Notes: generated by a model from the sequence alone, not told the origin. Shown: positions 3,001 to 62,496, numbered from the stretch's first letter. The stretch: DNA of 64,000 nucleotides from Magnetovibrionaceae bacterium (GCA_049603795.1 JBMYSY010000015.1:47531-111530); one strand, 5' to 3'. Translations and numbers: made by a program.

Positions 3001-3540
3001 CCAAGGCGGCAGCCGACGAGGCCGCAGACGCGGCGGAGGCTGCAGCCACAGCGGCAACCGCTGCCTACAATTCGGCTTTGGCGCACTTTAATGATGCGAC
3101 AGCCGATCTGGCGGCCTTGAATGCGACCCCGGTCCCCTCGGACGCCGACCAGGCGACGGCGCGGACCACGGCGATTGCCAATGCCACCGCCGCCGTCGCG
3201 GAAGCCGAGGCCGCGAAGGACGAGGCGAATGCTGCTGCCGGCCGGGCCAATACGGCTGCCGGCCTGGCGCGCGCCGCATCCGATTCGGCAAATGCGATTT
3301 CGGGCACGGCCGGTAGCGACGTCACGGATGCCCAGGGCTTCGCCACGACCGCCGCCGGTCAGCGCGATACCGCCGAGGATGAAGAAGCCCTGGCCGAGGC
3401 GCAGGAAAACCGGGCCGAACAGGCCGCCGGTCGGGCCGATGCCCAGCGGGAAGATTACGAGCAATTGCTGGCCCAGGCAGCCCAGGAAGCCGCCGAGGCA
3501 GCGGCCCAAGCCGCCCGTGACGCCCAGGCGGATGCCAAGG
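1..3540 (+). other. Ala-rich low-complexity, probably alpha-helical stalk region of the giant protein (at least ~1,170 aa)
   Basis: The translation is dominated by Ala with D/E/Q/T/S/N/R and has very few Pro, Gly runs or aromatics. Examples: AAAAAKAAAEAAAQQAADDARSSAEAVVQAKADADAAAE, and TAAQTALTAANAARTAADTALT at ~1561-1626, where Thr/Ala fall in a 4-3 spacing. It ends abruptly at DAKDDTHTINEDEADL (~3541), where the first cadherin-like unit starts. Confidence 0.7.
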
Positions 3541-18500: not shown

Positions 18501-21500
18501 CGGACCCTCTCTGTCGTGGATGCCAATGTGGCACCGGAAGCGGGGCTCTTGGCCACCGGTTCCGCCTTCCAGTTCGACGGGACGCAAGACAACCTGCGTT
18601 TCGATACCCAGACCGAATTCAATCCGGCCAAGGGCGATTTGACAGTCGAACTCTGGTTCGAATGGGACGGCACCACCAACGACACCCAGATCCTGTTCCA
18701 TAAATGGAACGGCAGCGGCGGGTATATCGGCAAGATCGAAAACGGTGTCCTGCAGCTCTATGCCGATACCAAGGGCACGGGGGCTGTCGATGCCGAACTC
18801 GCCATGCAGCGGATCGATCTTTCCGGAAATGGCGTATCTGCGGGGTGGCACCATGTCGCCATGGTCATCGACGGCGATGGTACGACAGGCACCGTCACGG
18901 GCTACCTTGATGGCAGCAACGCCAACTGGACCAACGGTGACGGCGGTTCGGTGACCAGCAATACCCTGACCTATGATGCCGATGGCATCACCCAGGGTGC
19001 GCCGCTCTGGGTCGGTTCCGATACCGTTTACAACTACAGCTTCAATGGCGGGATGGATGAAATCCGCGTCTGGACCGAAGCGCGGACGGCCGCTCAGATA
19101 GCAGAAGGCGTCAACACCGTCGTTGATAACCCGACGGGGGAGACGACGCTGGCGGGTTACTGGCGGGCGGCGAATGCCACGGACACCTCGGTTGTCGATA
19201 GCTCGGGCAATAATCACCACGGCACCTATACCAACGACGCGCATGTGGTGGGCCACCTCGGCACCGCCTGGCAGGGGACGACCGCCAACTCAGGGATCGA
19301 GGTGGCGGCACCCTCAACATTCAGCAACTCGAGCAATTTCTCGGTTGAAGGCTGGGTCCGGCTGGACAAGGACGCCACCGGCATTCAGACCGTCGTTTCC
19401 CAATGGGGCACGGCGGATGCCTATGCTGATGACCGGAGTTTCCAACTGTTCCTGACAGACGGAGACGTCGGCGATGGCGACTTCAACCTGACGGCCAGCA
19501 TGAGCCCGAACGGCGACCTCACCGATAACTGGAATGTGGTGGGCACCAAGTCCATCACAGCCGGCCAATGGCACCATGTGGCCATGACCTATGACGGCTC
19601 CATGCTTCAGCTGTATGTCGACGGCGAGACGGATACCGCGGTCACCAATGCAGCCGGTAGGAATTTGGGTTCAACAACACCGGTGGGCATCGGTGTGCGG
19701 CACAACAGTCCGACCAGCCCGGAGTATCCCCTGGATGGCCAGTTGTCCGATGTTCGGATCTGGACGGTGGCCCGTGATGCCGCAGGTATTCAGAACGGAA
19801 TGGACGGCTCCGTCTCGCATGAGACCACCGGGCTCGAGGGCTATTGGCCCCTGAACGAGGGCACGGGCACGACGGCGCAGGATGTGACCGGTAACGGCAA
19901 CGACGGTACCCTGTCTTCAGCCGATACCTGGGTGAATACGGCCCCCGCTATTTATTCGGATCTGGCCGAAGGAAGCACCTTCGAAGATCAGGCGATCTCG
20001 GGCGTTATCGGTCGTTTCGATGCGGATGGCGATACGGTTGCCGTCACGCTGGAAACCGATGCGGCCAACGGCACGGTGACGATCAACGAAAGCAACGGTG
20101 TCTACTCCTACGTCTACACGCCGGATGCCGACTTCGATGCCACGGATAGCTTCCAGGTTCGTCTGAATGACGGCAGCGGTGCCTCCAACGCGGAGGTGGT
20201 GAAGACCTTCACGGTCAATGTGGAGGGAACCCAGGATGTCCCGGTCGCCAATCTGACCGACCAGGTGGCCCAGGAAGATACCGACCTCGTGATACAGCTT
20301 TCGGCCGAGGACCCGGATACGGGCGACAGCCACAGCTACACGATTACGGCCCTCCCCACCACCGGCGGCAGGCTCTATCAATACGATGGCAACGCCACCG
20401 ATGATCGGGGGGCCGAGATCGTCGAACCCAACATTCTGGTCGCGGATTCCGCCGGGCGCATCATTTTCGTACCGGATGCGGACTTCGCGGGGACCGGTCC
20501 GTCCTTTGCCTATACGGCCAATGACGGCACGGATACCTCGCCGGCCAAGACGGTCAACATCACGGTCACCAATGACAATGATCAGCCGGGCTTCGCAGGG
20601 GTATCGGCGGGATTTGAATCCTTCCAGTTCGATGGTTCGGGTGCCGGCCTTTCGGTGGCTTCGGATGCGTCCTTGAGCCCGGGAACCGGAGACCTGACGG
20701 TCGAAACCTGGTTCTATTGGGATGGCTCGCCGCCGAGCGGAACATCCTATGCCCTGTTTGAAGCGAGGCCGGGTTCGGGCGGCAACGGCGCCTACATCGC
20801 CAACATCCATGAGTCCGGATTGTTGATGACAACGGTGCGGACGGGTTCAAACAACTCGGAGAATGATACCGCCGTTCAGCGCATCGACATCAGCGGCCTG
20901 GAACACGGTTGGCACCATTACGCGATGGTGCTCGATGGCGATGGCATTTCCTCTGGCACCGTGACCAGTTACTTGGATGGCGAGACCACCGGGTGGCTGA
21001 ACGGGGATGGCGCAACCATCACGGATAATGTCTATGGCTTTACGGGCAACGGTGGAAGCCTGGACTTGAATGATCCATTGCGGATCGGTCATTGGAACTC
21101 CGGTTCCACCGCTCATTTGAAGGGGCAGATGGCCGAAATCCGCATCTGGGAGTCCGCCAAGAGCCAGGACGCGATCCAGCAGGGCATGTTCGAGGCCGTG
21201 GATGATCCGGCAAACAATGCCGATCTGGCACTTTATTTGCGCCCAGACCAGGCCACCGTGTCCGGCGTTACGGACCTTTCGCCCAAAGGGAACGACGCGG
21301 CGAATGTGGGCGATGGCCCGCAGGTTTTGCACCACCTCGGCAATGCGGTCGAGCTTCCGGGTTCGGGTGAGTCCATTCGGGTGACGGCAACGGAAGAGCT
21401 TTCCGGCATGGATGCCCTGACGTTGGAGACCTGGGTCAAGCTGGATAGCGTCACGGGCAATCAGGCGATCTTCACGACCAGCGAACCGGGAACCGCCTGG

Positions 21501-24500
21501 TCCCATCAACTGACCACGAACGGCAGCGAATTGAGTTTCCTGGTCAGCAGCGATGGCAGTTCGGCTGATCTTGCTGACCTTCAGACCTCCGGATTGGGGC
21601 TGGAAACAGGCATCTGGTACCACGTCGCCGCCACCTGGGACGGCTCGACCTCGACGATCTATGTCAACGGCACGGTCGCGGGCACGAACAGCGCGACCTC
21701 GGGCACGGTAAAGACGGGCGCAACGGATCTTGCCATCGGCTCCAGCATCGATACCAACGGTGACGCGACGATCACGTTGGATGGCCAGTTGGCCGAGGCC
21801 CGGATCTGGGGCGTGGCACGCACGCAGCTTCAAGTTCAAAGCAGTGTCGATGGTGACGACATCTCCGCCAACGCGCCGAACCTGCTCGGGTTCTGGCCCA
21901 TGGAGGAAGGTGCCGGTACGACCGTCCATGATGTGACGGGCAACGGCCTGGACGGAACCTTGCCGAGTGCCACTGTCTGGGCGGACACCAGCGTCCCGCA
22001 GTTCTCCACCAGCGAGACGATTGACCTGTTCGAGGATTCCTCGACAACCGGCCGCCTGAAGGTTTTCGATGCGGATGCCGGGGACACCCTGACCGTCACG
22101 GTCGATACCGATGCCACCAACGGCTCGGTCACGGTCTTCCAGGATGGCGGCGAATGGAAGTTCACCTATACGCCCACGGCCAACTACGCCGGTTCGGATA
22201 GCTTCACCCTGCAGGTGGACGACGGTACGGGCGAGTCAAACGCAACGAAGACGCAGACCTTCACGGTCGAGGTCGAAGCGGTCAATGACACACCAGTAGC
22301 CGAGGTGACCAGCGGCTTGCAGATGCAGAAGGGCACCCAGCTGGTGCTTGATCTGGAAGCGACCAACCCAGAGACCGAGACGGTGGCCTTCACCATCGAG
22401 GCCCTTCCGTCCAACGGTGCGCTCTATCAATACGACGACGGTGCCGCCGACAAGCGGGGAGCGGTTATTCAATCCTCCGGCACGGCTGTGACCGATGTTG
22501 ATGGGCGGATTGTTTTCGTGCCGGATTCGACCTTCGAAGGCACGGGTCCTTCGATCCAGTTTTCTGCCACCGATGCGCAGGGGGCAAAGTCGGATACGGT
22601 GACCCAGGCGATCGAAGTGCTGGGGTATTCGGAGACGATCCATAACCAGAACACCGACCTGACCTGGGAGGAGTCTGCAAACTGGACTGCCGGTCTGCCC
22701 GGCGTGGCAAGCAAGGCGACCTTGACCGGTTCCGGTACAGTGACGCTGAACGCCGACGTCTCGATCGCCGAGTTGGATGCCGATACGAACCTTGACCTCA
22801 AGTCCAACACCCTGACCGTATCGGCGCTTGGCGACATAGCAGCCGGCAAAACTCTGAAGCTGGAAGGCGGCAATCTGGCCGGCGATCACAACATGACCGT
22901 CAACGGCACCTTGTCCTTCCAGTCCGGGACCCTGAGTGGCCTTGGAACCACAACGGTCGAAGGTGGATTCCAACTGTCCGGTTTGACGGCGGACAAGACG
23001 TTGGACGACCGGACCATCGCTCTTGGCTCCGGGGTTACGGCCACGATCAAGAACGCCACATTGCTGGGCGACGGTGAATTGACCAGCGCCGGTACCCTGA
23101 CCCTGCAACGGACGGTCAGCCTGGATCCGGCCTTCGCCAACTCGGGCAGCATCGCCATCCAGGCGATTTCGGGTGTGTCTGCGGTCATGAATCTTGATGG
23201 CGGTCTGACCAACACCGGCACGATTACGATGGACAGCATCGCGACTGCGGAAACCAGGGACGTTGGGATCAACGTTTCCTCGGCGGCAGATGGTTTCGTG
23301 AACGATACCGGCGGCACGCTCCAGGTTCTGGGAACGGTTGCTGCCGGTATCCGCTACGTCACAGGGTCTGTTACCAACAACGGCACCTTCGATATCGACC
23401 ACGCCTTTACGGTCAATAACGCCAGCGAGACCTTCGATACCCGGGACGGGGACATTGATGTCGCCTCCGGCAAGAACATGACCATCAATGCCGGGACGAC
23501 GATTTTCGGGACGGATACCGATCTTTCCGGCACCGGTAGACTGACACTTTCCGGCACCCATGCGCTGCAATTGGCCGAAGACTTCACCTTTACTTCCGAT
23601 ACGCTGGAAATGCGCTTCGGCAACGTATCGGTCAGCGGCCCGGGCAAGCTGATCAACGACGGGACCTTCACCTTTGAAAACGGGTCTCTGAGTTTCGCGA
23701 CCGAAATCTTGAACAACCAGGACGCCAGGCTTGAAGTCATTTCCATCAACGGCACGGAACTGACGCTGAACACCTCGTCGGATATCACGACCAACGGTCT
23801 CTTGGTCATGGATAACCAGGCGACAGGTGAAACGCGCAGCCAGTCCCTAAACCTGACAGGTTCTTCTAAGCTGGTGATCGGATCGACGGGCGAGCTGCAG
23901 GTGGACGGGACGGTCGCGACCGGTTTCCGGACCATAACGGGGTCGGTTCAGAACCTCGGCCTGATCGACGCCAACTACAGGCTTGATGTGGCGAACAGCG
24001 GCGAGGTCTTTGATAGCCAATCAGGCACGATCGACATCGCCAGCGGCGTGGTCATGGATATCGACGCCGGGACGACACAGTTCGGCACAGGGACAACGGT
24101 CCAGGGGGCCGGTCGTCTGACGTTGGGCGGTACTCATGAGCTCGACCTGGTCAGCGACTTCACCTGGGATTCCACCGAGACAGACATTTCCTTTGGAAAC
24201 GTGACGGTGACGGGGCCGGGCTCCCTCCTGGTCGATGGCGATCTCACCTATTCCTTTGGATCGCTGAGTTTCGAGACCCCGATCGTTGTCGGGGACACGG
24301 GAACACTAAATGTCTTCGGCGCGAATGGGGCGGATCCGGTTCTCAATACGTCGGCCAACATTACGGTCAATGGTGACTTGGTCCTGGACAATATCCAGGT
24401 GGGCCAGACGCGGTCTTCCTCGATCAATGTCACCGGGGCATCTGAACTGGTCATCGGCCCGACGGGCGAACTGATCGTGAAGAGCACGAACGCGGGCTCC

Positions 24501-27500
24501 CGCGCGCTTACCGGCTCCGTCGATAACGACGGCGTTATCGACGTCCAAGGGGCCTTCGTTATCAACAACGACGGGGAAGTTCTGGACAGCCGGGACGGCA
24601 AGATCACCATCGCCAGCGGCACCAGCCTGACCATCGATGACGGCACGCTTCAGTTGGGTTCCGGTGCAGAGTTGACTGGCGAAGGGACTTTGGCGTTCAC
24701 AGGTATCAACACCATCGATCTGGTCAGCGATTACACCCACGACGCCGATGATCTGACCACAACCTTCGGGACGACAACCGTCTCTACCGAGGGTTCGGCC
24801 CGGTTCATCAACATCGGTGACATGAGCTATTCCCACGGCAACCTGGATTTTGACGCATCGCTGCGCAACACGGGGCAGTTCACGGTGGCAGGCGGCAACG
24901 GGGCGGACCCGAACCTGCGGGCCTCGGCGGATATCGAAAACCAGGGCACCTTCATCCTGGATAACCAGCAGGTCGGCCAGACCCGGTCGGCGACCGTTAC
25001 CCTTGAGGGCGGTGCCGAATTCCTGAACCAGACCGGCGCGACCCTTTTGGTTCAGGGGACGGTGGCCAGCGGCTTCCGGACCTTGGTCGGTGATATCACC
25101 AACGCGGGCACGATAGACGTCGATTACGGTTTCGGCGTCACCAACACCGGCGCGACGCTGAACAACCAGGCGGGCGTGATCGATGTTGCCGAAAGCCGCA
25201 GCATGACCATCACCGGCGGCACCCTGGAATTGGGTTCGGCGGGGACCCTGACCGGTAAGGGTACGCTCGCGTTCTCCGGTTTGACGACCGTTGACTTGGT
25301 CACCGATTACACCCATCGGGCTACGGATCTGGACCTGACCTTCGGGACCACGACTGTCCAAGGTTCCGGCACCTTCATCAACGCCGGGGAGCTCGATTTC
25401 ACCTATGGCAATCTGGATTTTGATACGGGCCTCCAGAACGAAGGGGTCTTCGGGGTCATCGGTGGAAACGGTGCCGATCCCGTCCTGACGACCTCGGCCA
25501 CCATTCAGAACCAGGGCGTCTTCATCCTGGACAACCGCCAAGCGGGCCAAACCCGCTCGGCCGCCGTGTCGCTTGAAGGTTCGGCCATCTTCAACAACCA
25601 GTCCGGTGCCACGCTGCGCGTTGACGGAACGGTCGCCAGCGGATTCCGCACCCTGACCGGTCCGGTTACCAATGCCGGCGTCATCGATGTGAACTACGGC
25701 CTGACGGTCAACAACGCCTCGGCGACCTTGAACAACCAAAGCGGTACGATCGATATCGCCAGCGGCAAGACCCTGACCGTTGACCAGGGCACCCTGCAAC
25801 TGGGGACCGGCAGTACGCTGCAAGGTGAAGGGACGCTGTACCTGAGTGGCGCAAATACCGTCGATCTGGTTTCCGACTACACGCATACCGCAGCCGACCT
25901 GGCCTTCACCTTCGGCACCACCACGGTCTCGGGTGCCGGCAATTTCATAAACGACGGAACCCTGAACTTCAGCTTCGGCAACCTGGATTTCGATACCACC
26001 TTGCAAAACACCGGTACCTTTACGGTCACCGGCAACAATGGGGCCGACCCGGTCTTGACGGCTTCGGTTGATATCGAAAACAGCGGCCTGATTGTCCTGG
26101 ACAATGTTATCCCGGGTCAGCTCCGCTCGGCGGGTATCACCATGGAGGGCTCTTCGGTCCTGGTGAACCAGGCCGGCGGTATACTCCGGTCGTCCGGCAC
26201 CATCGCCAATGGCAGCCGGACGATCACCGGTAGCGTCGAGAACCTGGGCACCATTGACGTGGACTATGCCCTGTCCTTCGCGAACACCGGCGAAACCTTT
26301 GATACCCGCGCCGGCTCCATCGACCTGGCAGCCACCATGACGGTGACGGGCGGCACGGTGCAGTTTGGGTCCAGCACCGAATTGACAGGCAACGGCATTC
26401 TCAACCTCGCGGGGACGACGACGCTGGAATTGGTCAGCGACTACACCCACGCCACGGACGGGGTGGACCTGAACTTCGGTGGGAACGTCACCGTTTCCGG
26501 GGCCGGTGCCTTCAATAATACCGGTGACCTGCGCCTCGATACGCTGAACGATGTCTTCAATGTGGATTTCAACAACTCTGGTGAATTGGTCATCACAGGG
26601 GCCACGAACACATCCGCTTCGATCACCTTCAACAATGACCTGACCAATACCGGGACCCTGGTCCTGGATAACCAAGCGAGTGGTCAGACCCAGGGTGCTG
26701 CGGTGACCATGGGCAGCGGTGCAACCCTGGTGAACGAGGCGGCGGGGACGATCCGCATCGACCGGACCGTGAACACGGGCACCCGGATCATTCATGGCGA
26801 TGTCAGCAATGCCGGCCTGATCGACGTCAACGACGGGACGCGGATCGGAACGACCGGAGACACCTTCACGAACACGGGGATTATCGATATCGCAGCAGGC
26901 GAGGCGCTGCTCATCGAAGCCGATACCTTCGTCAACTCAGGCACCATTCAGGGCGAAGGCACCCTCATTGTTACGTCTTCGTCGGTCAGCAATACCGGCA
27001 CCATCATTGTCGCCACCGACGGGACCACCGGTGCGCTGGACTATCAGGATGACTATACCTCCAGCGCCAGCAGCACCATTACCCTGGACGTCCATTCCGC
27101 GACCGATCGGGATCTTCTGACCGTCGATAACCTGGATCTCTCGGCGGTCGGTGACACGCTGGAACTCAATCTGGCAGGCGTGAAGATCGGCGACAGCTTC
27201 ACGGTCATGAACTACGACAGCGTCACCGGGACCTTTGACAGCATCGTCCATAACCTGCCCACGGGTTACACGCTGACGCCGACCTATGGCGCAAACAGCC
27301 TGAGCTTCGTCGTTGGGGCTTCGGCGTCGACGACCACCATGAACCAAGCCGTCGACAGTGCCTGGAACAACTCCGGCAACTGGACCAATGGCCTGCCGGA
27401 TGCCAACACCATCGCCATCCTGGATGCCAATGCGAGCGACGTTGTCTTCCCGTCCGGCACCATCACCGTGCTGGGGCTCGAGGCCAATACAGGGCTCAGC

Positions 27501-30500
27501 CTCAACGGCGGGGATCTGATCATTCAGGGCCCGGGTTCGGTTGCGTCCGGCCAGACCTTCACGGTCGATAACGGCGATCTCACCATCAATGGCGACTTTG
27601 TCGCCAATGGTCCCCTCAGTTTCTTCGATGGCACCATCGGCGGCACGGGCAAGTTGATCGCGAAGACCGGCGGTACCCTTGGCGGCGACTTGACCAACTT
27701 CGCGTTGACGACGACTTTGCAGAACGAAGGGACCTTCACCTTCCCGGGCGGAAGTGGCGATTTCCTGATCTCGGGCAGCGGTGTTCTGGACAACCGCAGT
27801 GGCTCGACCCTCAATTTCACCGGCAATCAGGATATCACCTGGTCCGGGTCGGCGGGCAGCATTCTCAACGATGGTGCGGTGACGTCGAGTTCGACTCTGG
27901 CTGTGATCGATGTGCCCTTCCTGCAATCGGATGATGGGACGCTGACGGTTTCCGATGGCACCTTCCGCCTGAATGAACCGGGCTCCGTGCTCCGCGGGAC
28001 GGCGGATACCGGGGCTTCGGGCTATCTGGAAATCAACGCGGCGACGACCCTGGAAGACGGTTTCCTGCTGAACAGCGGCAATATCGTGCACGACGCCGGG
28101 GTGGCCACGGTCAAGGACATCACCATCGGGGCCTCGGCAGCCTTCCAGTTGGACAGCGGCGACATATCGGTTGCCAGCGGCAAAACCATGGAGGTGGATG
28201 GCACCCTGCAATGGCTCACCGGTGATCTGCTGGATGGTGGTGGCGTCCTGCGCATTGATGGCGAGTTGGATCTGCAGAGCACGGCGGCCAATCGCTTCAT
28301 CTATGGCACGCTCGAGAACAACGGCTCGGCAGAGGTGCTGGGGACCGGCGATCTCTACATTCAGCCGACCGGGGTGATCCGGAACAACGCCGGCGGGACC
28401 TTCACCTTCCTCAGCGACGCCGATACGAGTTTTTCCTCGTCCGCCGGCGAATTTATCAACGCGGGGACCCTGGCAAAGGCGACTGCCACGGGCGCGACCT
28501 ATTTCTATACAAAGCTGACCCAAACGGATCTCGGGACCGTCGATGTTGATAGCGGCCAGATTCGCTTCCTTGTCGACAGCCCGTCCGTTGGCGGAACCTT
28601 CGATGCGGCCAGCGGGGCCGAAATCGAGATTGCTTCGACCATGACCTTCGAGGAAGGCGTGACCTTCCAGGGCTCTGGCGTGACCGAAATCCTATCAGGC
28701 GGGGAGGCTGTCTTTAGCGGCAATGCGGAAGTTGCCTCGGGCGGGACCTTGCAACTGTCCGGTAACGGTCCGCTGACGGTCAATGCCGGCAAGACGCTGG
28801 AAGTCGATGGAACGCTGAATTGGACGACAGGGACCATTGATGGTGCCGGTACGATCCGGATTGATGGAACGGCCCAGGTCAGCAGCAGTGCCAACAAGTT
28901 CCTGGAAGGCGATATCGTCAACACCGGCACGATCACACACACGGGTGCCGGAGATATCTATGTCCAGAGCGGCGCTTCCCTGACGAACGCCATCGGCGGG
29001 ACGTTCAATCTGCAAGGCTCGGGCGAGCTGGCCTATTCGTCAGCACCGGGTGAATTCGTCAATGCCGGGACGATCCATAAAAGCGTGGATACCGGCAGCC
29101 GGAATTTCTATTCGGAATTGACGCAGACCGAGACCGGCTTGGTCGATGTGGATACCGGGTCGCTGTCCTTCCTGGTCGCCAGCGATTCAGTCGCGGGGAC
29201 CTTTGATGCGGCCAGTGGTGCCAGCATTAATTTCGGTGCCACGATGACCCTGAAGGCTGGAACCACCTTCCAAGGGGCCGGTACCCATTCGATCTCGTCC
29301 AGCGGCAAGCTGATCATCGACGGCAGCGTATCGGTGGCGACGGGCGGTACGATGTTGGTCGGCGGCGGCGAGGTTCAGGCCAATGCCGGAGAAACCCTGG
29401 ATATTGACGGTACACTGGAGTGGACTTGGGGCGGATTTTCCGGGGATGGTCTTGTTCGGGTCAATGGTGACGGCGAGCTCTCGTCCGCTTCGAACAAGTC
29501 GCTGCTGGGGACCCTGGAAAACCACGGTTCACTGGCCTTCACAGATACCGGAGATTTATACCTTCAGGCCGGTTCCGTCTTCAGGAATGCCGAAAACGGG
29601 CTGTTTGATATCCAAACGGATTCAGACATCACCTACGGTGCCGCCCCCGGTGATTTCGAAAACCACGGGGTTGTCCGAAAATCTTCCGGCTCTGCGACCA
29701 CCGATTTCGACACGACCTATACTCAGTCCGTCGGGGCAACGCTGGATGTGGATAGCGGCACCATTCAGCTGTTCGGAACCGGCAACACCCTGGCCGGTGT
29801 TGTGGATGCAGCATCCGGTGCTTCTCTCATGGTCAGTGGCAACACGACAGTCCTGGCCAAGACGGTGTTCCAGGGGGCCGGCACCACAGAAGTCGCTCAT
29901 TATACGACCAGCGTTTCCGGCGACGCCTCTGTTGCATCCGATCATACGTTCAATGTCTCGGGCGGTACCCTTACCATTGCGGACGGCATAACCCTGGATG
30001 TGGATGGCTCACTGGATTGGGACGGCGGAACCATCGCAGGCGACGGTGTGGTCATCCTTGATGGCGACGCGACCTTTGCCGGGAATGCCAACCGGACCCT
30101 GACCGGGACGATTGTCAACAACGGTTCGGTCACCATGACCGATGCGGGCGATATCTTTATCGAGACCGCTGGGATCTTCCAGAACGCGCTCGGCGCGACC
30201 TTTGAAGTCCAGGGTTCGGGTGATCTCTCGAATACGACTTCCGCGGGCAGCTTCCAAAACGCCGGCACCTTCATTCGCAACGGCGGCGTTGGGACCATGA
30301 ACCTGGATGTCCTGGCATCCAGCAGCGGCGAGATTCAGGTGCTGACCGGGAATCTTCGCTTTTCCGAGGGGCTGACCAACTCCGGTCGGATCGAGATCGC
30401 TGATGGCGCGACCCTGACCGTATCCGGCGGCAACTTCTCCAACACCGGCATCATCGAAGGGGCGGGGACGTTGAACGTCACCACCTCAGGAACGGTTGCA

Positions 30501-33500
30501 AACTCCGGCGATATCACCGTTGCGACCGACGGCACCGTGGGCGCGCTGAACATCGAGAGCGACTTCGCGACGGATGCCCAGAGTGTCTTCAAGTTCGACC
30601 TGGCTTCGGGCACCAGCTTCGACCATCTGACGGTTGACGATTTGGACCTCTCCGCCTCGACCGACACCATCGAGCTGGATTTCAGCTACCTGCCCTTCCC
30701 GGGGTCAAGCTTCGAAATCATCACCTACACCGGTCTCACCCCGGACACGACCTTCGACAACGTCGTTCATAACCTGGACGACAATTATGAGGTAAACCTG
30801 AGCTACGGTTCGACCGGGCTGACCGTAACGGTCAATCAGAACTTTATCGTCCACGACCAGGCGACGGACGCGGCCTTCCATACGGCGACGAACTGGACGA
30901 ACGACACGCTTCCGACGTCAACCGACGCGGTGCAACTGGCCGCAAATGCTTCCGACGTGACCCACGGGTCCGGGATCACGACGGTCCGCCATCTGGATGC
31001 CGATACGGGACTTGCGCTGACCGGCGGGACGTTGAATGTCAGTGGCGAGGCCGATTTCGCCAGCGGCACCACCCTGACCATGAGCAACAACGCCCTCTAC
31101 ACCACGGGTGGGATGACCACCATCAACGGGACGGCGGTGTTCAACCAAAGCCAGATTTCGTCAACGGACGGCGGGCTGACAGTCGCCTCGGGCGCGACGG
31201 CCAACCTGAACCTCGACACCTCGGGCGGCATCACCTTCAGCGGGATGGATGTGGTCAACAACGGGACGGTGAATGTCCAGGGCGAAACCTATGTGGTTCA
31301 GCTCGCGAGTGCTTCCACCTTCACCAATGCCTCCGGTGCGACTTTCGATCTGAAGGACGATACCGACCTGACCGATTCGGGCTCCGGCAACGAGATGTAC
31401 AACGCCGGGACATTTGTGAAATCCGGTGGGACCGGGTCTGCCGAAATGAATGTCCATCTGGACAACACGGGCACCCTGGACATTGACGCGGGAAGCCTGG
31501 ACATCAACGACGGCTTCACCAATCTGGGCGGCACCATCGATATCGCATCCGGTGCGACATTCCTGCTCGATGCGTCATCGACTGCGAACCCGGCCGTCTT
31601 CGGGACAGGGACCACGATCCAGGGTGACGGTTCGATGGTCTTCTCCAATGGCCTGACCCAGTTCACCGCCAACACGACGCTGGGCGACAATGTGTCCTAT
31701 TCCATGGTGGACACGGGCACCATCGAGCTGGCGCAGAATGTCAATCTGACGCTGGCCAACGATTTCACCTGGACCCGCGGTACGATCGGAGCCAGTGGGA
31801 CCAATGCCAAGGTCATCAATGCGGTTTCCAACCCGCTGACCCTGCACACCGTTCTCGGCAGCGCCACTCTGGACGATGTCGAACTGGAAAACCGGGGCAC
31901 CCTGACCTGGGAATCGGGTTCCGTCTACGGTCTGACGATCGGCAACGGATCATTGCTGGACAACCAGTCCGGTGCCACCATCGTGATCAAGCACGACAAG
32001 AACATCACCGAAAGCGGCTCCGGAAACAGCTTCGTCAACGCAGGCACTCTTCAGAAAACGGTGGGTTCGGGATCCTCCGATCCGACCGATATTCAGGTGG
32101 CGACCACCAACTCGGGTACGATTGATATCGATGCCGGTCGGCTGGAATTTTCGGACTCGTTGACCAACTCGGGTGCGATCGAGGTGGCTGCCGGTGCCAG
32201 CCTGTTCCTGGATGCGACCTCGAACCTGGACATCGCGGCCTTCAATGCCGGGAGCTCCTTCTCGGGCGCCGGTGACGTCTATTTCTCCATGAGCCGGGCC
32301 GAGATCAACACGGACCTGACCCTTGGTGACAATCTGACGTACCACTTGGACGACACTGGTCTGATCCTGGTCGGCTCGAATCGGACCCTGACCCTGGATG
32401 CTGATTTCGACTGGCAGCGCGGCGGGTTTGACGGCTACAGCAGCTCCTACCTGTTCAACAACGCCGGCAATACGGTCACGATGAATACCCAGAACGGGAT
32501 TTCCTTCACCGCGCTGAATGTGGTCAACAGCGGCGTGATGGATTGGGTGGAGACCTCTTCCTACAACCTGACCATTTCCGACGGTGCGGACTTCACCAAC
32601 GCGGCATCGGGGACCTTCTATATCCGCCATGACCTGGACATCACCGAGTCCGGTTCCGGCAACCAGATGACCAACTACGGCACGATCACCAAGACGGCCA
32701 GCGCCGGCGGGTCGGCACGCACCGATATCTCCGTGCCGTTCGAAAACCAGGGCACCATCAACGTGGATGCGGGCATCCTGGAGTTTTCGGATGCCTACGT
32801 CAGCCAGGGTGGCACCATTTCTGTTGCTTCCGGGGCCGAGGTTCTGTTTGACGCCACATCCACCACAGACATCACCCAACTGGATGGCACCACCAGCTTC
32901 ACGGGATCGGGCGACGTCACCTTCTCCATGACAAAGGCCCAGATCGTCGATGATCTGACCCTCGACGGTGGCCTGAATTATCAGTTGGTGGATAACGGTA
33001 CGATTGAAGTCGCCGCTGCAAAAACCCTGACCCTGGATGCCGACTTTGATTGGTCACGGGGCTTTTTCTCTGGCGATGGTGCTTTGGTGAATAACGCCGG
33101 GAAGACGGTGTACATCGACAGCCAGAACAGTGTGTCCTTCGATGCGTTGACGGTGACCAACAACGGCACCTTCGACTGGGAAGCCTCGTCTATCTATAAC
33201 CTGACGATCTCCGGCGGGGCCCAATTCACCAACGCCTCCGGTGCGAGCTTCCTGATCAACCACGATAAGGACATCTCGGAAAGCGGCTCCGGGAACCTGT
33301 TCACCAACGCAGGGCTTCTGCGCAAAGTGACGGGTGACGAATCCACCGGGCGCACCGACATTGGTGTCCCGGTCGTCAATACCGGAACCATTGATGTGGT
33401 GGATGGCATTTTGGAATTCTCGGATTCCGTCACCACGACAGGTTTGATGAGTGTCGGCGCGACAGGCGAGATTGTCTTCGATGCTACGAGTGCCACTACC

Positions 33501-36500
33501 GGGATTGCCACGTTCAACGATGGAGCCAGTTTCTCTGGCTCCGGTATCGTCAACTTCTCTATGTCCAAGGCGGTGGTCGACACAGATCTCAGCCTCGGCG
33601 GTTCGATAACCTATAAATCGAGCGACAACGGCGCGATTGAGGTGACCAGCGGCCATACCCTGACCATGGATTCCGAGTTTGTCTGGTCCCGGGGTAAGTT
33701 CGAGGGGGCGGGTGCCGTCAAGAATGCCTCCGGCAATACCTTGACGATGAACACGTCGAACGCCATCACCATCGACGAGGTGGATTTCACCAACGAAGGC
33801 ACCGCGACCTGGGCGTCGACATCCAGTTACGACGTCGTGCTCTCCAATGGTGCGTCCTTCACCAACGCGGTCGGCGCGACCTTCGACATTCAGCACGATA
33901 GGGATGTCATCGAGTCAGGCTCCGGCAATCTGTTCACCAATGCCGGGACGCTGGTCAAATCTGCAGGCGCGGGCGGCAGCAGCCGGACTGAAATCCAGTC
34001 AGACTTCGTAAACAGCGGTACGCTGGAAATCCAGGCCGGTGTGTTCCGGGCGACCGATGATTTCACCAACACAGGAACGATCCGGATTGCTGATGGCGCG
34101 CGGCTGGATATCACCGGTGCCACCTTCAACAACTCGGGCAGCATCGAGGGCGAAGGCACGATCTTCATCGCCAGTTCGACCGTGGTCACCGATACCGGCG
34201 ACATCACGGTGGCGACGGATGGTACGACGGGTACGCTGTCCTTTGCGTTGGACTTCGAAACCGGTGCCGGCACGGCGCTGAACCTGGATGTGGCCGGGGC
34301 TTCCGATCATGACGTCCTGGATGTGGTCGGTGGCGTGAACCTCTCTGGGGCCGGTGACGTGATTTCGGTCAGCTTCGGTTCCTACGAACCTGTTGCGGGC
34401 CAGACCTTCACGGTGCTGACCAATGACGGATCGGATGCGATCTCGGGCAGCTTCGACAGCATCATTCATGACCTCGGCACCGATTGGAAATTGACGGCGG
34501 ATTATGCCGGTGGCGACGGCAATGACCTGGTCCTGACGGTCGAGGCCAATGGCCCGACTGTGAACGCGGACTCGCTGACCGGCACCTCTGGTTCGGATAC
34601 GATTGATGGCCTGGCCGGCAATGACACGATCTTTGGCCTTGCCGGAAATGACACCCTCAAAGGCAACGACGACAACGACATCCTCTACGGCGGCGATGAC
34701 AACGACCTGCTGCAGGGTGGTGCGGGCGATGACACCATGGAAGGCGGCGCGGGCGATGACATCATCCAGGGCGGCTCCGGTACCGATTTCGCGGACTACC
34801 GAAACGCGACAGGTGCCGTCCATGTTCAATTCGCCAATACGTCGTCGCAATCCGTCGGCGGCGGGCAGGGGGCCGACACCATCAGCCTTGATGTTGAAGG
34901 CTTCCTCGGCTCGGCTTACGGCGATACCTTCGAAGACATTGCTGTTTCGTCCTACGGCAACGTCTTTTATGGCTATGGCGGGGATGACTCGCTCCATGGC
35001 GGCGGTGGCGTCAACTCGCTCTATGGCGGGGATGGTAACGACCTTCTGACAACCGGCGGACAAGGCAGCCTCTATGGCGGTGCAGGCAATGACAGCCTCG
35101 TTGGCGGTATTGGCAACGACCTTTTGGACGGCGGAGCGGATAACGACACCTACGAGATCAGTCGAAGCGATGACGTGATCTTGGACAGCGGCGGCACCGA
35201 TACCGTCGTGTTCAATTCGACAGAAGGTGGCGACTACGGCGGTGACGGTGTCATTCGCGATGTCTACCGAAGCGGCGGCGATATCGTCTTCCGCACCAGC
35301 CTTGACTACGGGGGCTATGACTCCACCCTCACGGTCGCCGATGGTGTGATCGAAACTTTTGGATATCGGGAGAACGACGAGGGCTCTATTACAACGGATA
35401 CTTGGTCAATCTTTTCGGGAACCAACGCGAGTTCGGAAACCACGGACCAGGCCATCATCGGTACCAGTGGTGCTGATGTCCTGGTTGGGGGAAGTGGAAA
35501 TGACATCCTTTCGGGTAGCGATGGCAATGACGACCTTACAGGTGGCGCGGGCGATGACCTCTTCCTGATTGGCGGCGGGAGCAATACTGTCGATGGCGGT
35601 GCAGGGCAGGATGAGCTCTATATCGGGGCCAATCTAAGCTACAACATCAACCTTGTGACCGGCACGGCCACTTGGTCGAGCCTGACCACGACGTTCTCGA
35701 ACATTGAAGATGTGACCGGCGGTGCCGGGGCTGAGACGATCATCGGGGACAACAACGCCAACCGCCTGTCAGGTGGTTACGGGGCGGACACGATCTCCGG
35801 TGGCGGTGGCGACGACACCATCGAAGGCGGCAAGTTCAACGACATTCTGAACGGTGGTGCCGGCGACGACACGATTAATGGGGGTGCAAATAACGACACC
35901 ATTGACGGTGGCGATGGCATCGACATTGCGGAGTTCACCGGAAACTACGCCGATTATACCATCACGGCAGGTGATGCGGGGCTGACGGTCTCCGGCACCG
36001 ACGGCACAGACATTCTGACGGATATCGAACGGCTGCGGTTCGATGATCAGACGATTGCCGTCCCCGAAGTCCTCGGCACAAATGCGGCCGGTGGCTTCGC
36101 GCAGTTCGACAAGGCGGACCAAACCTACCTCTCGGCCGCCCATGACTCGGCGCAGCAGCTGGAAAGCTGGACGATCGAGGCCTGGATCCAGACGGAAGAC
36201 GACGCCAACGTGATCGGGCGTATCGTGTCCAAGTCCGATGGTGCCAACAACTCGCATTTCTCCCTCTATACCTGGGGCGGCAAGGTCTGGGTTCAGGGAA
36301 CCGAACCGCCGACCACCCACGTAGACCTTGGCAGCACGACCACGATCAGCGACAACCAGTGGCACCACGTGGCCGGTACCTATGACGCCGCGACCGATAC
36401 CTTGAAGATCTACGTGGATGGCGTTTACGAGGGCCAGCAGACCAATGTGGGGCCCTTCGTTTCGGCGGGCGGAAACCTTGAGATCGGTCGTTGGAGTGAC

Positions 36501-39500
36501 AGCGTCGGCCAGTACTATGACGGTGCGATGGACGATGTCCGCATCTGGTCGGAAGCCAAGACCGAAGAGCAAATCCGCGAGGGCATGAACCGCCCGGTCA
36601 GTGAGCCGACGACGGAAAGTACCCTCGTTGCCTCTTACGATTTCGACAGCGCGTCAGGCACCACTGTCACTGACGGCTCGGCAAATGGCTTCGATCTTTC
36701 CACGGTTTCCGGCCAGGCACCGAACTTCACCTCGCCCAATGAGATCATGTTCAGCGTCGATGGCTCGTCAGGCCAGGGGGCGTCGGGCGATCTGTTGCTG
36801 ACGCAGACCAACGACCTTTCCATCGAAGTCACCTTCATGTGGAACGGGACCGATACGTCCGGCGACATGGTTCTGGCCTACAACGGGACCTACAGCACCA
36901 ACGGTTACGGGCTGATTTTGGACCGGACCGGGGCGGACACCTACAAGCTGCAGGGTGAATTGGGCGGTATCGGCGGGCTGCATACCGATTTCACGGTGAA
37001 GGCCGGCGAAATCGTCCAGGCAGCCCTGGTGCGCGAGAGCGGAACCTGGAAGATCTACGTCAACGGCGAAGATGAAACGATCACGGCAGGCACCATAACG
37101 ACCAATCCGGTCACGCCCACCGGCAGCTTCCACGTGGCGACCACGGGCTCGTCCGCACCGTTCTCAGGCCTGGTGTCGGATGTTCGTGTCTGGTCCGATG
37201 CCCGCACCTCGACCGAGGTTGCCAACAATCGCAACGGCTTGACCGCATCCCAACCCGAACAGGGCCTGGAAGCTTGGTTCCCGCTGACCGAAGGATCCGG
37301 CACGACTTTGGTCGATGCCTCCGGAATGGGGCATGATCTGACGGTCTCCGGCGGCAACTGGTACAGCGGTATTCCGCCGGTCTATGACGACGGGGCCGTA
37401 ACGGTCATCGAAGACCAGCCTTTGACCGGGGTGATCGGAACCTACAGTTATGCCTCCGGTGACACCCTGACCGTCAGCCTGGTGGGTGCGGATGGCGGTG
37501 CTGCCAAGGGGGATGTCAGCCTCACCCAAAGCGGTTCCTCCTGGCTCTATACCTACACGCCGGACGAAAACGCCACAGGTGCGGACAGCTTCTTCATCGA
37601 GGTTTCCAACGGCACGACAACAACCCGCGAAGAAATCTCGGTCAGCATTACCGGTGTGGCGGATGATCCGGAGGTATCGGGCCTCGGCCTTTCTGACGGC
37701 GCAATTACCCTGGACGGCAGCGATGACTACATCGATATCCCGGACAGCGGCGGACTGAACAAGGCGCTCGATGCCGACTACACGGTCGAGGTCATGTTCC
37801 GGACGGATCATGATTCCACGGGCGAGCTCCATCGGATCCTCACAAAAGTATCGGATGACCATACCTCTGCGGAAGCCTATTCCTTCCGGATTGCCAACAA
37901 CGAGCTGAGCTTCATCGCCGGCTATGACAGCAATGGTGCAACGAGCGGCGGCGCGGCTTCTGTTTCGGTCGGTTCACTCGGAACCGTTAATGACGGTGAG
38001 TGGCATCGGGCTTCGGCAACTTACGATAGCGCCACGAGCACGGTAACCCTGTACCTGGATGGTGTCCTCCAGGGTTCGACGACCATGCCGGAAGACAACC
38101 TGGCATCAACGAATTCAAATCCTGTCACCATCGGTCGCTTCAGTTCCGTTCATGGGCAGTACTACAACGGCGATGTTGCCGATGTACGTGTCTGGAACAC
38201 GGCCCTGGATGGAACAGCCATTGCGGCCTCCGATGATATCCGGATTGCCGACCCGACCAATGAAGCCAACCTGATCGGCTATTGGAAGCTGGACGAAGGC
38301 GAAGGTGCCTCGATCGCAGACGCTTCGGGTAACAACCTGAGCGGCACGCTGTACGGACAAACCTCCGGCTCCGAGACCTGGGCGGATGACAGCCCGTTCT
38401 ACTCGGAAACCGTTTCCAGCCTCAGCGTCATCAAGGATCAGGCCGAGGTCGCGACCCTGCAGCTTCTGGACGGCGACGGCGACACGGTTACCGTCAGTTC
38501 TTACTTCTCGCCCAGCAACGGTACCCTGGTGGACCTGGGCAATGGCCAGTTCCGTTACACGCCCGACGCCGGCTATACCGGTGCCGACAGCTTTACGGTC
38601 AACCTGACCGACAGCAGCGGCGCGAGCGTGGCGCGGACCATCAACATCACCGTTGCCGCGCCGCCAGTGGTCCTTGGTGTCACGCAACCCGCTGATTTCG
38701 TTCAGTTCGATGGCGTGAACGACCACATCAACGTACCGCCCGACCTTGGCATCACGACAGGCGATTTCACGGTGGAAGGCTGGATTTATCTGGACAGCCT
38801 CGGCAATTACAGCACGGTCTTTGACAACCGCTCGGATGCCAACAACGGGTTCCTGTTGGGTGTGGACGACCAGAACAAGCTGACCGGTCTTATCAACACC
38901 ACCGGTTCCGATGTGACGATCCAATCGTCCGGAAGCCTGTCTGCCGATACCTGGTATCACGTTGCCTTCTCCGGTGATCGGGACGGCAATGGGACGATCT
39001 ACCTGGATGGCGAGAATGTGGGCTCGGCGAGCATTTCGGCCCAGTCCGGCAGCGTCGAAGTCCCGAGCGGTCAGACAGCCGTGATCGGCGGGGCCGCGGG
39101 GACCAGCACGTCTTGGGCTCCCTTCAACGGGCGCTTGTCGGATATTCGTCTGTGGTCAGACCTGCGCACGGCTGAAGAGATCGACACCTACAAGACAGCC
39201 GAGATCGAGAACCCGGGTACGACGGCTAACCTTGTCGCCTATTGGCCCTTGGATGGGGATACGGTCGACGAGACCACCGGCGCTGTGACCGATCTGTCCT
39301 CGGGAAGCCATGACGGCACGCTGGGTGCGTCGTCCGCTTCGGGTACAGATGATCCGTCGCTCCAGGAAATGCACTTTGCCAAGGGCCTGTCGGTCACCGG
39401 TTCGACCAGTTCCTATGGGGCTGTGAGTGATTCCGGCGGTGTCTTCAATACCTCCGAGTTTACCGTTGAGGGTTGGGTATACCTCGATGATCTGAGCACG

Positions 39501-57838: not shown

Positions 57839-61484
<3,646 letters not shown>

Positions 61485-62306: not shown

Positions 62307-62432
62307 GTCCCCCTGCAGGAAAGCCCTTTACCACGGGCGATTCATCTTGCACGCAAGGACGATGGGGGATGGCTGTGACGAAGGTATGACCGTTCCGTGA
62401 AATCTGCCCCGGGTGCGCCTCAAGGTCATTCG

Positions 62433-62486
62433 TGAAGGGGCAGGCGCGCGTGATGGGGCAGGCGCGCGTGAAGGGCCAGGCGCAGG
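62433..62486. repeat. Three tandem copies of an 18-nt GC-rich unit in the LOG / HD-gene intergenic region
   Basis: The copies are TGAAGGGGCAGGCGCGCG (62433-50), TGATGGGGCAGGCGCGCG (62451-68) and TGAAGGGCCAGGCGCAGG (62469-86). They have 17/18 and 15/18 identity to copy 1. They start 11 nt downstream (minus-strand sense) of the LOG stop codon. Confidence 0.85.
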
Positions 62487-62496
62487 GACCGCAGGC

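What the first reader, a model, noticed from the sequence alone, without database searches (positions are those of the whole stretch)
22641..34553. Three consecutive, mutually different beta-solenoid cassettes (~4,000 aa), each looking like a complete autotransporter-style passenger
Seen: there are three arrays with different unit lengths (~573, ~605 and ~635 nt) and different unit consensus. Each opens with an (A/S)(W/F)....NWT.(G/D).(L)P......A.L motif. Each closes with G.L......(D/F)........L.LD......D.L.V....L.(A/G).......(L/V).F..........F.(V/I).......G.FD..(V/I)H.L......L...Y.....L...V. Established, from memory: both motifs resemble the openings and closing summary modules of autotransporter / PATR-type beta-helical passengers. 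Inference: type V-style passenger cassettes have been embedded, three in a row, in a type I substrate.
Basis: partly seen in the sequence, partly recalled or inferred. Interest (0 to 1): 0.7.

Follow-up and report, generated by a model that had tools for sequence, protein, structure and literature searches.

The report
Three capped beta-helix rods in a giant adhesin
A bacterial surface-protein gene of at least 16,805 codons contains three consecutive rod-shaped beta-helix modules, each closed by an end-cap domain that also occurs in genuine autotransporter proteins, so a very common and largely uncatalogued building block is here reused in a protein that looks like a type I secretion substrate.

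Summary
Residues 7539-11509 of one giant ORF (window 27-50444, open at its 5' end) form three back-to-back cassettes. Their internal periods are 190-192, about 200 and 211 aa. Each cassette has an opening W/F...NW...P motif and a closing module of about 105 aa.

An AlphaFold2 model of the whole second cassette (pLDDT 89) is all-beta, with three short strands per rung of about 22 aa. Its best PDB neighbours are nearly all autotransporter passengers.

The closing cap is a compact domain (pLDDT 95). It is found in 42,089 protein clusters, often several times per protein. It occurs in a verified type Va autotransporter directly before the barrel, in a TpsA, and in PATR-repeat proteins.

- The window has no beta-barrel, PATR, pertactin or TPS match.
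- The cassettes are not independent kinds. C2 and C3 units are homologous, and C1 is a distant relative (hhalign 96%).
- Relatives of the C3 body carry PEP-CTERM, T9SS or dockerin ends; none has a barrel.

Tandem cassettes are common elsewhere, and some relatives carry RTX repeats or adjoin type I secretion genes. I read this as a secretion-system-independent capped beta-helix cassette: a new variant of a known kind, of moderate interest.

The parts
27..50444 (+). Giant ORF (at least 16,805 aa) that holds the cassettes. It also contains Big_9, cadherin-like, Laminin_G_3, RTX and FG-GAP domains.
   Evidence: No in-frame stop lies upstream of nt 27.
22314..22619 (+). Ig_SibA-like domain immediately upstream of cassette 1.
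   Evidence: Pfam PF24619, E 1.4e-11 and 3.6e-6.
22641..22898 (+). Cassette 1 opening cap (LTWEESANWTAGLPGVASKATL...).
22899..26909 (+). Cassette 1 body: 7 units of about 190 aa (aa 7625-8961).
   Evidence: Autocorrelation z = 10 at offset 190. Units are 32-65% identical. hhalign to C2/C3 units gives probability 96%.
26910..27338 (+). Cassette 1 terminal rungs plus closing cap (cap aa 9001-9104 = nt 27027-27338).
   Evidence: Cap profile E 4.8e-24. Alignment A2.
27366..27569 (+). Cassette 2 opening cap (AWNNSGNWTNGLPDANTIAIL...).
   Evidence: Modelled at pLDDT 51-90.
27570..30422 (+). Cassette 2 body: 5 units of about 200 aa, each carrying a DG(T/S)L.W..G motif.
   Evidence: AlphaFold2 model: all-beta, three strands per 22 aa.
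30423..30854 (+). Cassette 2 terminal rungs plus closing cap (cap aa 10171-10276 = nt 30537-30854).
   Evidence: Cap profile E 5.4e-23. In the model the last 100 aa or so form 8 longer strands.
30876..31094 (+). Cassette 3 opening cap (AAFHTATNWTNDTLPTSTDAVQL...).
31095..34097 (+). Cassette 3 body: 5 units of about 211 aa, each carrying an F.W.RG motif.
   Evidence: Autocorrelation z = 9.3 at offset 211. Units are 32-54% identical. 118 outside relatives.
34098..34553 (+). Cassette 3 terminal rungs plus closing cap (cap aa 11401-11509 = nt 34227-34553; ends ...DYAGGDGNDLVLTVEANG).
   Evidence: Cap profile E 7.7e-21. Cap-only model pLDDT 94.6, pTM 0.86.
34578..35558 (+). RTX nonapeptide block that starts about 9 aa after cassette 3.
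   Evidence: Pfam HemolysinCabind. 27-nt tandem repeats. NCBIfam RTX matches.
49941..50441 (+). C-terminal RTX repeats plus a tail of about 130 aa: the presumed type I secretion signal region.
   Evidence: Pfam HemolysinCabind. Partial matches to the C-terminal parts of the RTX_toxin and serralysin models. Sequence shown.

Best explanation
The region encodes three tandem copies of one modular design, a capped right-handed beta-helix cassette. Each cassette has four parts:
- an opening cap (W/F...NW...P...A.L);
- 5-7 units of 190-211 aa, each contributing roughly 8-9 triangular rungs of about 22 aa plus occasional long hairpins;
- a few terminal rungs;
- a compact closing domain of about 105 aa.

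Shown. The three bodies are diverged members of one superfamily. The closing cap is a very widespread domain that also ends the passengers of real type Va and Vb proteins and of PATR-repeat proteins.

Inferred. Each cassette is a rigid rod of about 20-28 nm, giving about 70 nm for the three. The rods extend and present binding surfaces of a giant cell-surface adhesin that bears RTX repeats and is probably exported C-terminus first by a type I system. The caps seal the helix ends, so neighbouring cassettes do not stack or aggregate. Because the closing cap leaves the cell before its own body, it may act as the folding nucleus for C-to-N stacking of the rungs, as the C-terminal passenger segment does in autotransporters. 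The ligand is unknown. The many ConA-like lectin domains in the same protein and the structural match to CapCBM89 make glycans a reasonable guess.
For: Periodicity and unit alignments.

One superfamily: hhalign probability 96%; terminal 185 aa 36-40% identical.

Solenoid fold. The C2 model has pLDDT 89.3, 137 strands with a median length of 4 residues, and three strands per 22 aa. Foldseek's top PDB matches are Ssp, Ag43, IgA1 protease, EspP, Hbp, pertactin, Hap and EtpA.

Cap domain. The cap-only model has pLDDT 94.6. The giant ORF holds exactly three caps. The cap profile finds 42,089 clusters at E <= 1e-3, and the top hits carry 2-11 caps each. In the fetched set, 207 of 552 caps are followed by an opening motif at a median gap of 3 aa.

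Cap in type V proteins. It lies before the PF03797 barrel of a Sphingobium PATR autotransporter and in a Variovorax TpsA. It occurs with PATR repeats in P0192 and P0220.

RTX and type I context. There are RTX blocks and an RTX-like C-terminus. The closest relative of C1 (P0119) has cassette, then RTX, then genes for an ABC/MFP fusion and an OEP. P0120 has 4 tandem cassettes followed by an RTX/Peptidase_M10_C ORF.

Carbohydrate lead. CapCBM89 (7JVI) is hit number 2 for the whole cassette and the only significant hit for the cap, with TMq 0.70. The protein holds many Laminin_G_3 domains.
Against: - Only C2 and one cap were modelled. C1 and C3 are solenoids by homology, not by their own models.
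- I could not inspect coordinates, so handedness, rung count and rod length come from DSSP strings and Foldseek neighbours. TM-scores for the whole cassette are low (0.10-0.26), although probabilities are high.
- There are no type I secretion genes in the window, the 5' end of the gene is missing, and the source genome was not found.
- The folding-nucleus role is an analogy. Free-standing relatives carry Sec signal peptides and PEP-CTERM or T9SS ends, and those routes do not export C-terminus first. The cap therefore cannot be specific to vectorial export.
- The cap shows no significant structural match to solved autochaperone regions (Pet 4om9 E 7.6; IcsA 3ml3 E 4.4 for the whole cassette).
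- No ligand evidence of any kind.
Confidence: 0.7

Rival explanations
1. The cassettes are true type V passengers captured recently from autotransporter genes and inserted into a type I substrate.
For: The fold is passenger-like. The closing cap is shared with a verified type Va autotransporter and a TpsA. Weak or faint matches link the cassettes to beta-helix models used for passengers: Fil_haemagg in 4 of 29 closing segments, and BigA_3rd and BigA_4th on relatives.
Against: There is no PATR, barrel, pertactin or TPS match in the window. None of the 118 relatives of the C3 body has PF03797. I found no barrel in the cap-bearing proteins I checked: 10 by Pfam, and 147 by a rough look at their C-termini. 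GC content across the cassettes equals the rest of the gene, and the best outside identity is only 28-34%, so nothing points to a recent capture. The three caps are each other's closest relatives at 36-40%, which fits duplication within the gene.
Confidence: 0.12
2. The cassettes are mainly carbohydrate-binding modules, CBM89-like beta-helices, that target the giant protein to polysaccharide surfaces.
For: CapCBM89 (7JVI) is hit number 2 for the whole cassette (E 1.8e-4) and the only significant hit for the cap (TMq 0.70). It is a non-catalytic xylan-binding beta-helix. The same protein carries dozens of ConA-like lectin domains.
Against: There is no sequence similarity to 7JVI, even with profiles at E <= 10. 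The binding residues of CapCBM89 were not compared. Beta-helix similarity is generic.
Confidence: 0.2
3. The cassettes mediate self-association between cells, like the Ag43 beta-helix 'Velcro' interaction, and so drive aggregation or biofilm formation.
For: Ag43 structures give five of the seven PDB matches at E <= 1e-3. Long exposed beta-helix faces are suited to head-to-tail packing (established for Ag43; from my own knowledge).
Against: The match is at fold level only (TM 0.1-0.26, 11-13% identity). No interface residues were examined.
Confidence: 0.12
4. The cassettes are catalytic beta-helices, such as a polysaccharide lyase, glycosidase or epimerase.
For: The right-handed beta-helix is the fold of PL, GH28 and CE8 enzymes and of phage tailspikes. 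Such proteins appear low in the Foldseek list.
Against: Those matches have E > 0.1, mostly above 1. There is no Pfam or NCBIfam enzyme family hit. Repetitive units of 190-211 aa copied 5-7 times are not what single-active-site enzymes look like.
Confidence: 0.04

Closest known systems
PATR-type classical (type Va) autotransporter passengers, e.g. the Sphingobium yanoikuyae pKN1 protein WP_270093828.1
   Same: Both have a right-handed beta-helix rod. Both start with a similar W...W...P-type opening. The same closing cap domain ends the beta-structured part: in the Sphingobium protein it lies at aa 758-853, before the barrel at aa 941-1187. P0192 and P0220 show cap-bracketed PATR cassettes in tandem.
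   Different: The window has no PATR repeats and no PF03797 barrel. The body is built of 190-211 aa super-repeats rather than PATR repeats (Pfam model 30 positions). The cassettes sit in the middle of a protein of at least 16,805 aa that bears RTX repeats.
Solved autotransporter passengers: Ag43 (7KOH, 7KO9), Ssp (8E7F), pertactin (1DAB), Hbp, EspP, IgA1 protease, Hap
   Same: They are the best structural neighbours of the modelled cassette (Foldseek E 2e-4 to 6e-3, probability up to 1.0).
   Different: TM-scores are low (0.10-0.26) and identity is 9-18%. There is no sequence-level match. The cap does not significantly match their C-terminal regions.
CapCBM89 (PDB 7JVI), the xylan-binding beta-helix module of a GH10 xylanase
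   Same: It is a non-catalytic 14-turn right-handed beta-helix. It is the only significant solved-structure neighbour of the closing cap (TMq 0.70, rmsd 4.1 A, 18% identity) and the second-best neighbour of the whole cassette.
   Different: There is no detectable sequence relation. It is a single short helix attached to an enzyme, not tandem rods of more than 1,000 aa in an adhesin. Xylan binding was not tested here.
Giant RTX adhesins exported by type I secretion (LapA, MpIBP, SiiE, FrhA type)
   Same: All are very large and modular, combine Ig-like and cadherin-like repeats with ligand-binding domains, and end in C-terminal RTX repeats. MpIBP also contains a beta-helical region (3P4G appears at E about 2).
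   Different: In described RTX adhesins the extender regions are beta-sandwich repeats (PMC7493085, listed). Here about 4,000 aa are capped beta-helix cassettes of a type shared with type V proteins. The type I genes and the N-terminal retention module could not be checked.
Unnamed capped beta-helix cassette proteins of Planctomycetota, Verrucomicrobiota, Kiritimatiellia and Magnetococcales (e.g. P0001, P0006, P0027, P0119, P0120)
   Same: They share the full design of opening motif, n units of about 190-210 aa, and closing cap. Identity is 25-34% over up to 98% of a cassette. Tandem cassettes are common.
   Different: Most are free-standing, with a signal peptide and PEP-CTERM, T9SS or dockerin ends. 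Only a minority carry RTX repeats (5 of 147 top hits).

Membership tests
Type Va classical autotransporter | C-terminal 12-stranded beta-barrel translocator (Pfam PF03797) in the same polypeptide | tested here: not met
   No PF03797 hit anywhere in the 16,805 aa at E <= 0.01. The positive control, the Sphingobium protein, scores E 2e-47.
Type Va classical autotransporter | Right-handed parallel beta-helix passenger | tested here: met
   The C2 model has pLDDT 89.3 and three short strands per 22 aa. The top Foldseek matches are passengers.
Type Va classical autotransporter | Conserved module at the C-terminal end of the passenger, at the autochaperone position | tested here: inconclusive
   The window's cap profile hits the last beta module before the barrel of a verified autotransporter (37 bits, aa 758-853). 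tblastn of a related cap gives E 5e-6. However, there is no significant structural match to solved autochaperone regions and no Pertactin (PF03212) hit.
Type Va classical autotransporter | N-terminal Sec signal peptide | not testable with these tools
   The ORF is open at the 5' end of the window.
PATR / autotransporter-associated beta strand repeat (PF12951, TIGR02601) | Multiple copies of the PATR repeat (Pfam model 30 positions) | tested here: not met
   No PF12951 hit at E <= 0.01. No NCBIfam hit at E <= 10. Controls P0192 (E 3.9e-26), P0220 and the Sphingobium protein score strongly.
Type Vb two-partner secretion exoprotein (TpsA/FHA) | N-terminal TPS domain (PF05860) and adjacent TpsB gene | tested here: not met
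   No TPS hit in the giant protein and no TpsB gene in the window. The only trace is a weak Fil_haemagg match in 4 of 29 closing segments of the alignment, most of them from other proteins.
RTX protein / type I secretion substrate | GGxGxD nonapeptide repeats near the C-terminus | tested here: met
   HemolysinCabind at about aa 16,639-16,673 and in internal blocks. Sequence shown.
RTX protein / type I secretion substrate | Uncleaved C-terminal secretion signal | tested here: inconclusive
   There are only partial, sub-threshold matches to the C-terminal parts of the RTX_toxin and serralysin models. No dedicated signal model matched.
RTX protein / type I secretion substrate | Linked ABC transporter, membrane fusion protein and outer membrane factor genes | tested here: not met
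   The downstream genes are DUF4915/TIGR03032, an MCP, CheW, a histidine kinase and IDH. The upstream side is outside the window. The relative P0119 does have ABC/MFP and OEP genes adjacent.
Capped beta-helix cassette superfamily (no curated model found) | Opening W/F...NW...P motif, repeated units of 190-211 aa, and a closing cap of about 105 aa (G.L.I.G.Y.Q...L.I.L.G....D.L.V.G.A.L.GTL.V...F.P..G..F.V.....G.F) | tested here: met
   All three elements are present in each cassette. There are 118 relatives of the C3 body and 42,089 cap-bearing clusters.
CBM89 | Sequence membership and xylan-binding surface residues of CapCBM89 | tested here: not met
   Fold-level match only. 7JVI is absent from profile searches of PDB sequences at E <= 10. 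Binding residues were not compared.

The most novel reading that the evidence does not exclude
The closing cap is a portable folding nucleus, equivalent to an autochaperone, that works in any system exporting proteins C-terminus first. In this giant type I substrate, each of the three cassettes would emerge cap first, fold from C to N, and add pulling force and directionality to the export of a polypeptide of more than 16,000 residues. Type I and type V secretion would then share one folding-driven export module, represented by a domain family of more than 40,000 clusters for which I found no model in the Pfam-A or NCBIfam copies searched.
Probability: 0.25. Interest if true: 0.65.

Novelty: new variant of a known kind. 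Interest (0 to 1): 0.42.

Why it matters
Three things follow if this is right.

1. It shows that the end-cap domain of PATR-type autotransporter passengers is not specific to type V secretion. It closes beta-helix rods in proteins with many different export or anchoring signals. Here it does so three times inside a protein that looks like a type I substrate.

2. It identifies a very large domain family (42,089 clusters at 50% identity) and two kinds of body unit for which the Pfam-A and NCBIfam copies I searched returned no model. That is a concrete annotation gap for giant surface proteins.

3. It gives a testable idea for how very long beta-helical segments fold during C-to-N export. Practically, the cap profile is a clean marker for splitting such giant proteins into independently folding cassettes for structural work.

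Tried and rejected
- Tandem Repeats Finder found none of the arrays, because the periods exceed 500 nt and the copies are too diverged.
- Whole-protein self-BLAST returned only the identity hit. Chunked BLAST worked.
- Pfam and NCBIfam searches of the cassettes were empty, even at E <= 10 for NCBIfam.
- PDB sequence searches with single cassettes and with profiles gave nothing meaningful. The best were Tapirin at E 0.005 and T4 gp5 beta-helix at E 0.008.
- The closing-segment profile (A2) search with the search for homologous proteins returned only 29 short fragments, so it was of little use for architecture. The exhaustive representative search with the cap profile (A5) replaced it.
- tblastn of the whole C3 cassette against plasmids gave a single weak hit, a Crocosphaera Calx-beta protein.
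- The one genome-contig scan, done with the monomeric IDH, did not find the source genome. The best matches were 72-73% identical, from Rhodospirillales, Roseibium, Terasakiella and Magnetaquicoccus. The organism and the 5' end of the gene therefore remain unknown.
- My small opening-motif HMM, built from 3 sequences, was too weak to score other proteins. A regular expression was used instead.
- I rejected the idea that the long antisense ORFs in the region (for example 24306-26795 on the - strand) are genes. All homology and domain evidence is on the + strand.

Full report
**Setting**

The finding lies inside a single + strand ORF at window 27-50444, 16,805 aa long. No in-frame stop precedes nt 27, so the gene probably starts upstream of the window. 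Pfam finds the following in the rest of the protein:
- Big_9, Cadherin_4/5 and He_PIG domains;
- many Laminin_G_3 (ConA-like lectin) domains and Laminin_B;
- internal RTX blocks;
- C-terminal FG-GAP repeats, followed by RTX repeats and a tail of about 130 aa.

The C-terminal 500 aa give partial matches to the C-terminal parts of the RTX-toxin and serralysin models. The downstream genes are a DUF4915/TIGR03032 protein, an MCP, CheW, a histidine kinase and two isocitrate dehydrogenases. None is a type I secretion gene. GC content is uniform, about 0.60, across the gene.

**Check of the observation**

Residues 7539-11509 (nt 22641-34553) form a block that matches only itself in chunked self-BLAST. 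Autocorrelation of the protein gives sharp peaks at 190-192 aa for C1 (z = 10), 199-201 aa for C2 (z about 4.5) and 211-212 aa for C3 (z = 9.3).

C1 has seven units at 32-65% identity. C2 and C3 have five units each. A profile of the closing cap hits the giant protein three times only, at the three cassette ends, with E between 5e-24 and 8e-21.

One amendment is needed: the cassettes are not unrelated.
- C2 and C3 units align at 19-31% identity.
- C1 units match the C2/C3 unit profile by hhalign at probability 96%, E 2.8e-9.
- The last 185 aa or so of the three cassettes are 36-40% identical, closer to each other than to any outside sequence.

**Fold**

I modelled the whole of C2 (1,170 aa) with an alignment of 37 sequences. 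The result has mean pLDDT 89.3. The model is all-beta, with 137 strands of median length 4 residues. Three successive strands span a median of 22 residues, which is the signature of a three-sided beta-helix. There are about 43 rungs before the cap.

At E <= 1e-3, Foldseek against the PDB returns the autotransporter Ssp, five Ag43 chains and CapCBM89. IgA1 protease, EspP, Hbp, pertactin, Hap and EtpA follow, and tailspikes and lyases come only at E > 0.1. TM-scores are low (0.10-0.26). I take this to reflect long curved rods of different lengths, but I could not inspect coordinates. C3 and C1 are solenoids by homology; they were not modelled.

**The closing cap**

The last 100 aa or so of the C2 model have eight longer strands. 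I modelled the cap alone (C3 aa 11401-11509, 29 sequences). It is very confident, with pLDDT 94.6, pTM 0.86 and nine strands.

Its only significant neighbour among solved structures is 7JVI (TMq 0.70, rmsd 4.1 A). 7JVI is CapCBM89, a non-catalytic, xylan-binding, 14-turn right-handed beta-helix (PMC8810776). The Pet autotransporter passenger gives TMq 0.53, but at a non-significant E of 7.6. The cap is therefore best described as a specialised terminal segment of the helix, not as a match to a solved autochaperone domain.

**Relatives**

C3 has 118 relatives at 23-38% identity, up to 98% coverage and E values reaching 1.5e-49. Most are free-standing proteins of 850-2,100 aa with these parts:
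- a signal peptide or a planctomycete-type N-terminus;
- the same opening motif (W..G.W....NW....P);
- n units of about 200 aa with a conserved L.W.GG..G.G motif;
- the same closing module;
- then a PEP-CTERM, T9SS tail, dockerin or nothing.

None has an autotransporter barrel. Where PATR or Beta_helix Pfam hits occur in these proteins, they lie outside the homologous cassette.

C1 has only six relatives. The best are Magnetococcales giant-protein fragments. P0119 has cadherin-like domains, one C1-type cassette and then RTX repeats. It is immediately followed by genes for an ABC/MFP fusion and an OEP. P0120 has four tandem cassettes, followed by an RTX/Peptidase_M10_C ORF.

**How common the cap and the tandem layout are**

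The cap profile, searched exhaustively against 1.84 billion representatives, finds 42,089 proteins at E <= 1e-3 and 19,447 at E <= 1e-10. The top hits carry 2-11 caps each, in proteins of up to 6,439 aa.

In the set I fetched, 154 of 254 cap proteins have several caps. Of 552 caps, 207 are followed by an opening motif at a median gap of 3 aa. The numbers of caps and of opening motifs per protein correlate at r = 0.74. Tandem capped cassettes are therefore a common architecture. Embedding in RTX proteins is a minority case: 5 of 147 top hits have at least 4 RTX nonapeptides.

**Link to type V secretion**

- Two of ten cap-rich proteins scanned carry strong PATR repeats (P0192 E 3.9e-26; P0220 E 1.5e-15). 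In them, the same opening and closing motifs bracket PATR bodies in tandem.
- tblastn of the P0192 cap against plasmids hits proteins annotated as autotransporter, autotransporter-associated beta strand repeat protein and filamentous haemagglutinin.
- I verified two of these. The Sphingobium yanoikuyae protein has PF03797 at aa 941-1187 (E 2e-47) and PATR repeats. The cap profile, built from the window's three caps plus outside relatives, matches aa 758-853 at 37 bits. That is the last beta module before the barrel linker.
- The Variovorax protein has a TPS domain and an adjacent TpsB gene. The cap matches aa 600-679 at 62 bits.

**What is not met**

The window has no PATR, barrel, pertactin, AIDA or TPS match. 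Sequence searches of the PDB find no passenger. Only weak traces of generic beta-helix families appear:
- Fil_haemagg in 4 of 29 closing segments, and Hyphal_reg_CWP;
- Tapirin at E 0.005;
- faint or weak BigA_3rd and BigA_4th hits on relatives.

**Interpretation**

The best-supported reading is a capped beta-helix cassette that does not depend on any one secretion system. It is present here as three diverged tandem copies. The relatedness of the caps suggests they arose by duplication within the gene. They sit in a giant RTX-bearing adhesin.

Shown: the repeats, the caps, the fold of C2 and of one cap, the superfamily relation among the three cassettes, the distribution of the cap, and its presence in real type Va and Vb proteins.

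Inferred:
- the rod length, about 20 nm for C2 and about 70 nm in total, assuming a rise of 4.8 A per rung;
- type I export;
- a capping or anti-aggregation role, and a possible role as folding nucleus during C-to-N export, by analogy with the C-terminal passenger segment of autotransporters (my own knowledge of the pertactin and EspP folding studies, not checked here);
- a binding function, possibly for glycans.

**Novelty and score**

[quoted passage not shown] Three things are new here:
- the specific body units (190, 200 and 211 aa super-repeats with no curated model);
- their occurrence in a protein that looks like a type I substrate;
- the demonstration that the cap of PATR-type passengers is shared across export systems.

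I rate this a new variant of a known kind, with interest 0.42.

Noticed in passing
window 1-3600: The giant ORF has no stop upstream of nt 27, so it is probably longer than 16,805 aa. Its first 1,200 residues or so are an alanine-, glutamate- and aspartate-rich low-complexity stretch (AEAAAQ...-like). GC there is 0.67-0.68 against about 0.60 elsewhere, with strong AT skew.
   Followed up: partly
window about 5400-7500 and 34578-36300: There are large internal RTX nonapeptide blocks far from the C-terminus (11 and 8 HemolysinCabind stretches). One begins about 9 residues after cassette 3. The same order, closing cap then RTX, is seen in the relative P0119.
   Followed up: partly
window about 16800-17200 (aa about 5600-5720): Two Laminin_B (domain IV, PF00052) matches with E 7.8e-26. 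From my own knowledge this domain is best known from animal laminins and perlecan, so its presence in a bacterial giant protein is worth noting. There are also Toxin_R_bind_N and pentaxin-like matches among the many ConA-like lectin domains.
   Followed up: no
window 50474-51616 (+): A DUF4915/TIGR03032 family gene (E 1.8e-130) starts 30 nt after the giant ORF's stop codon and may be co-transcribed. Its function is unknown.
   Followed up: no
window 57839-60055 (-) and 60264-61484 (-): A monomeric isocitrate dehydrogenase gene and an Iso_dh-family (isocitrate/isopropylmalate dehydrogenase) gene lie side by side on the same strand. The monomeric one is only 72-73% identical to its best matches in GTDB species representatives (Rhodospirillales, Roseibium, Terasakiella, Magnetaquicoccus), so the source organism has no close relative among them.
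   Followed up: partly
window 62431-62483: An 18-nt tandem repeat (2.9 copies, 91% matches) lies inside an ORF (62413-63087, +) that has no Pfam match.
   Followed up: no
L083 6190-10571 (next to P0119): In the Magnetococcales relative, the type I ABC transporter and the membrane fusion protein appear to be fused into one 1,020-aa product (ABC_membrane, ABC_tran, HH_AprE, Beta-barrel_AprE), followed by an OEP gene.
   Followed up: no
L085 8438-9823 and 21242-28175 (around P0120): The four-cassette relative P0120 is flanked by several transposase genes (DDE_Tnp_1, rve, Transposase_mut). Its RTX C-terminus is called as a separate 242-aa ORF, which suggests a frameshift or gene decay.
   Followed up: no
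plasmid hits H6-H8 and H12: The closing cap also matches regions annotated 'phosphatase PAP2 family protein' on Agrobacterium and Burkholderia plasmids. This suggests cap-bearing beta-helix segments fused to PAP2 domains, or misannotation.
   Followed up: no
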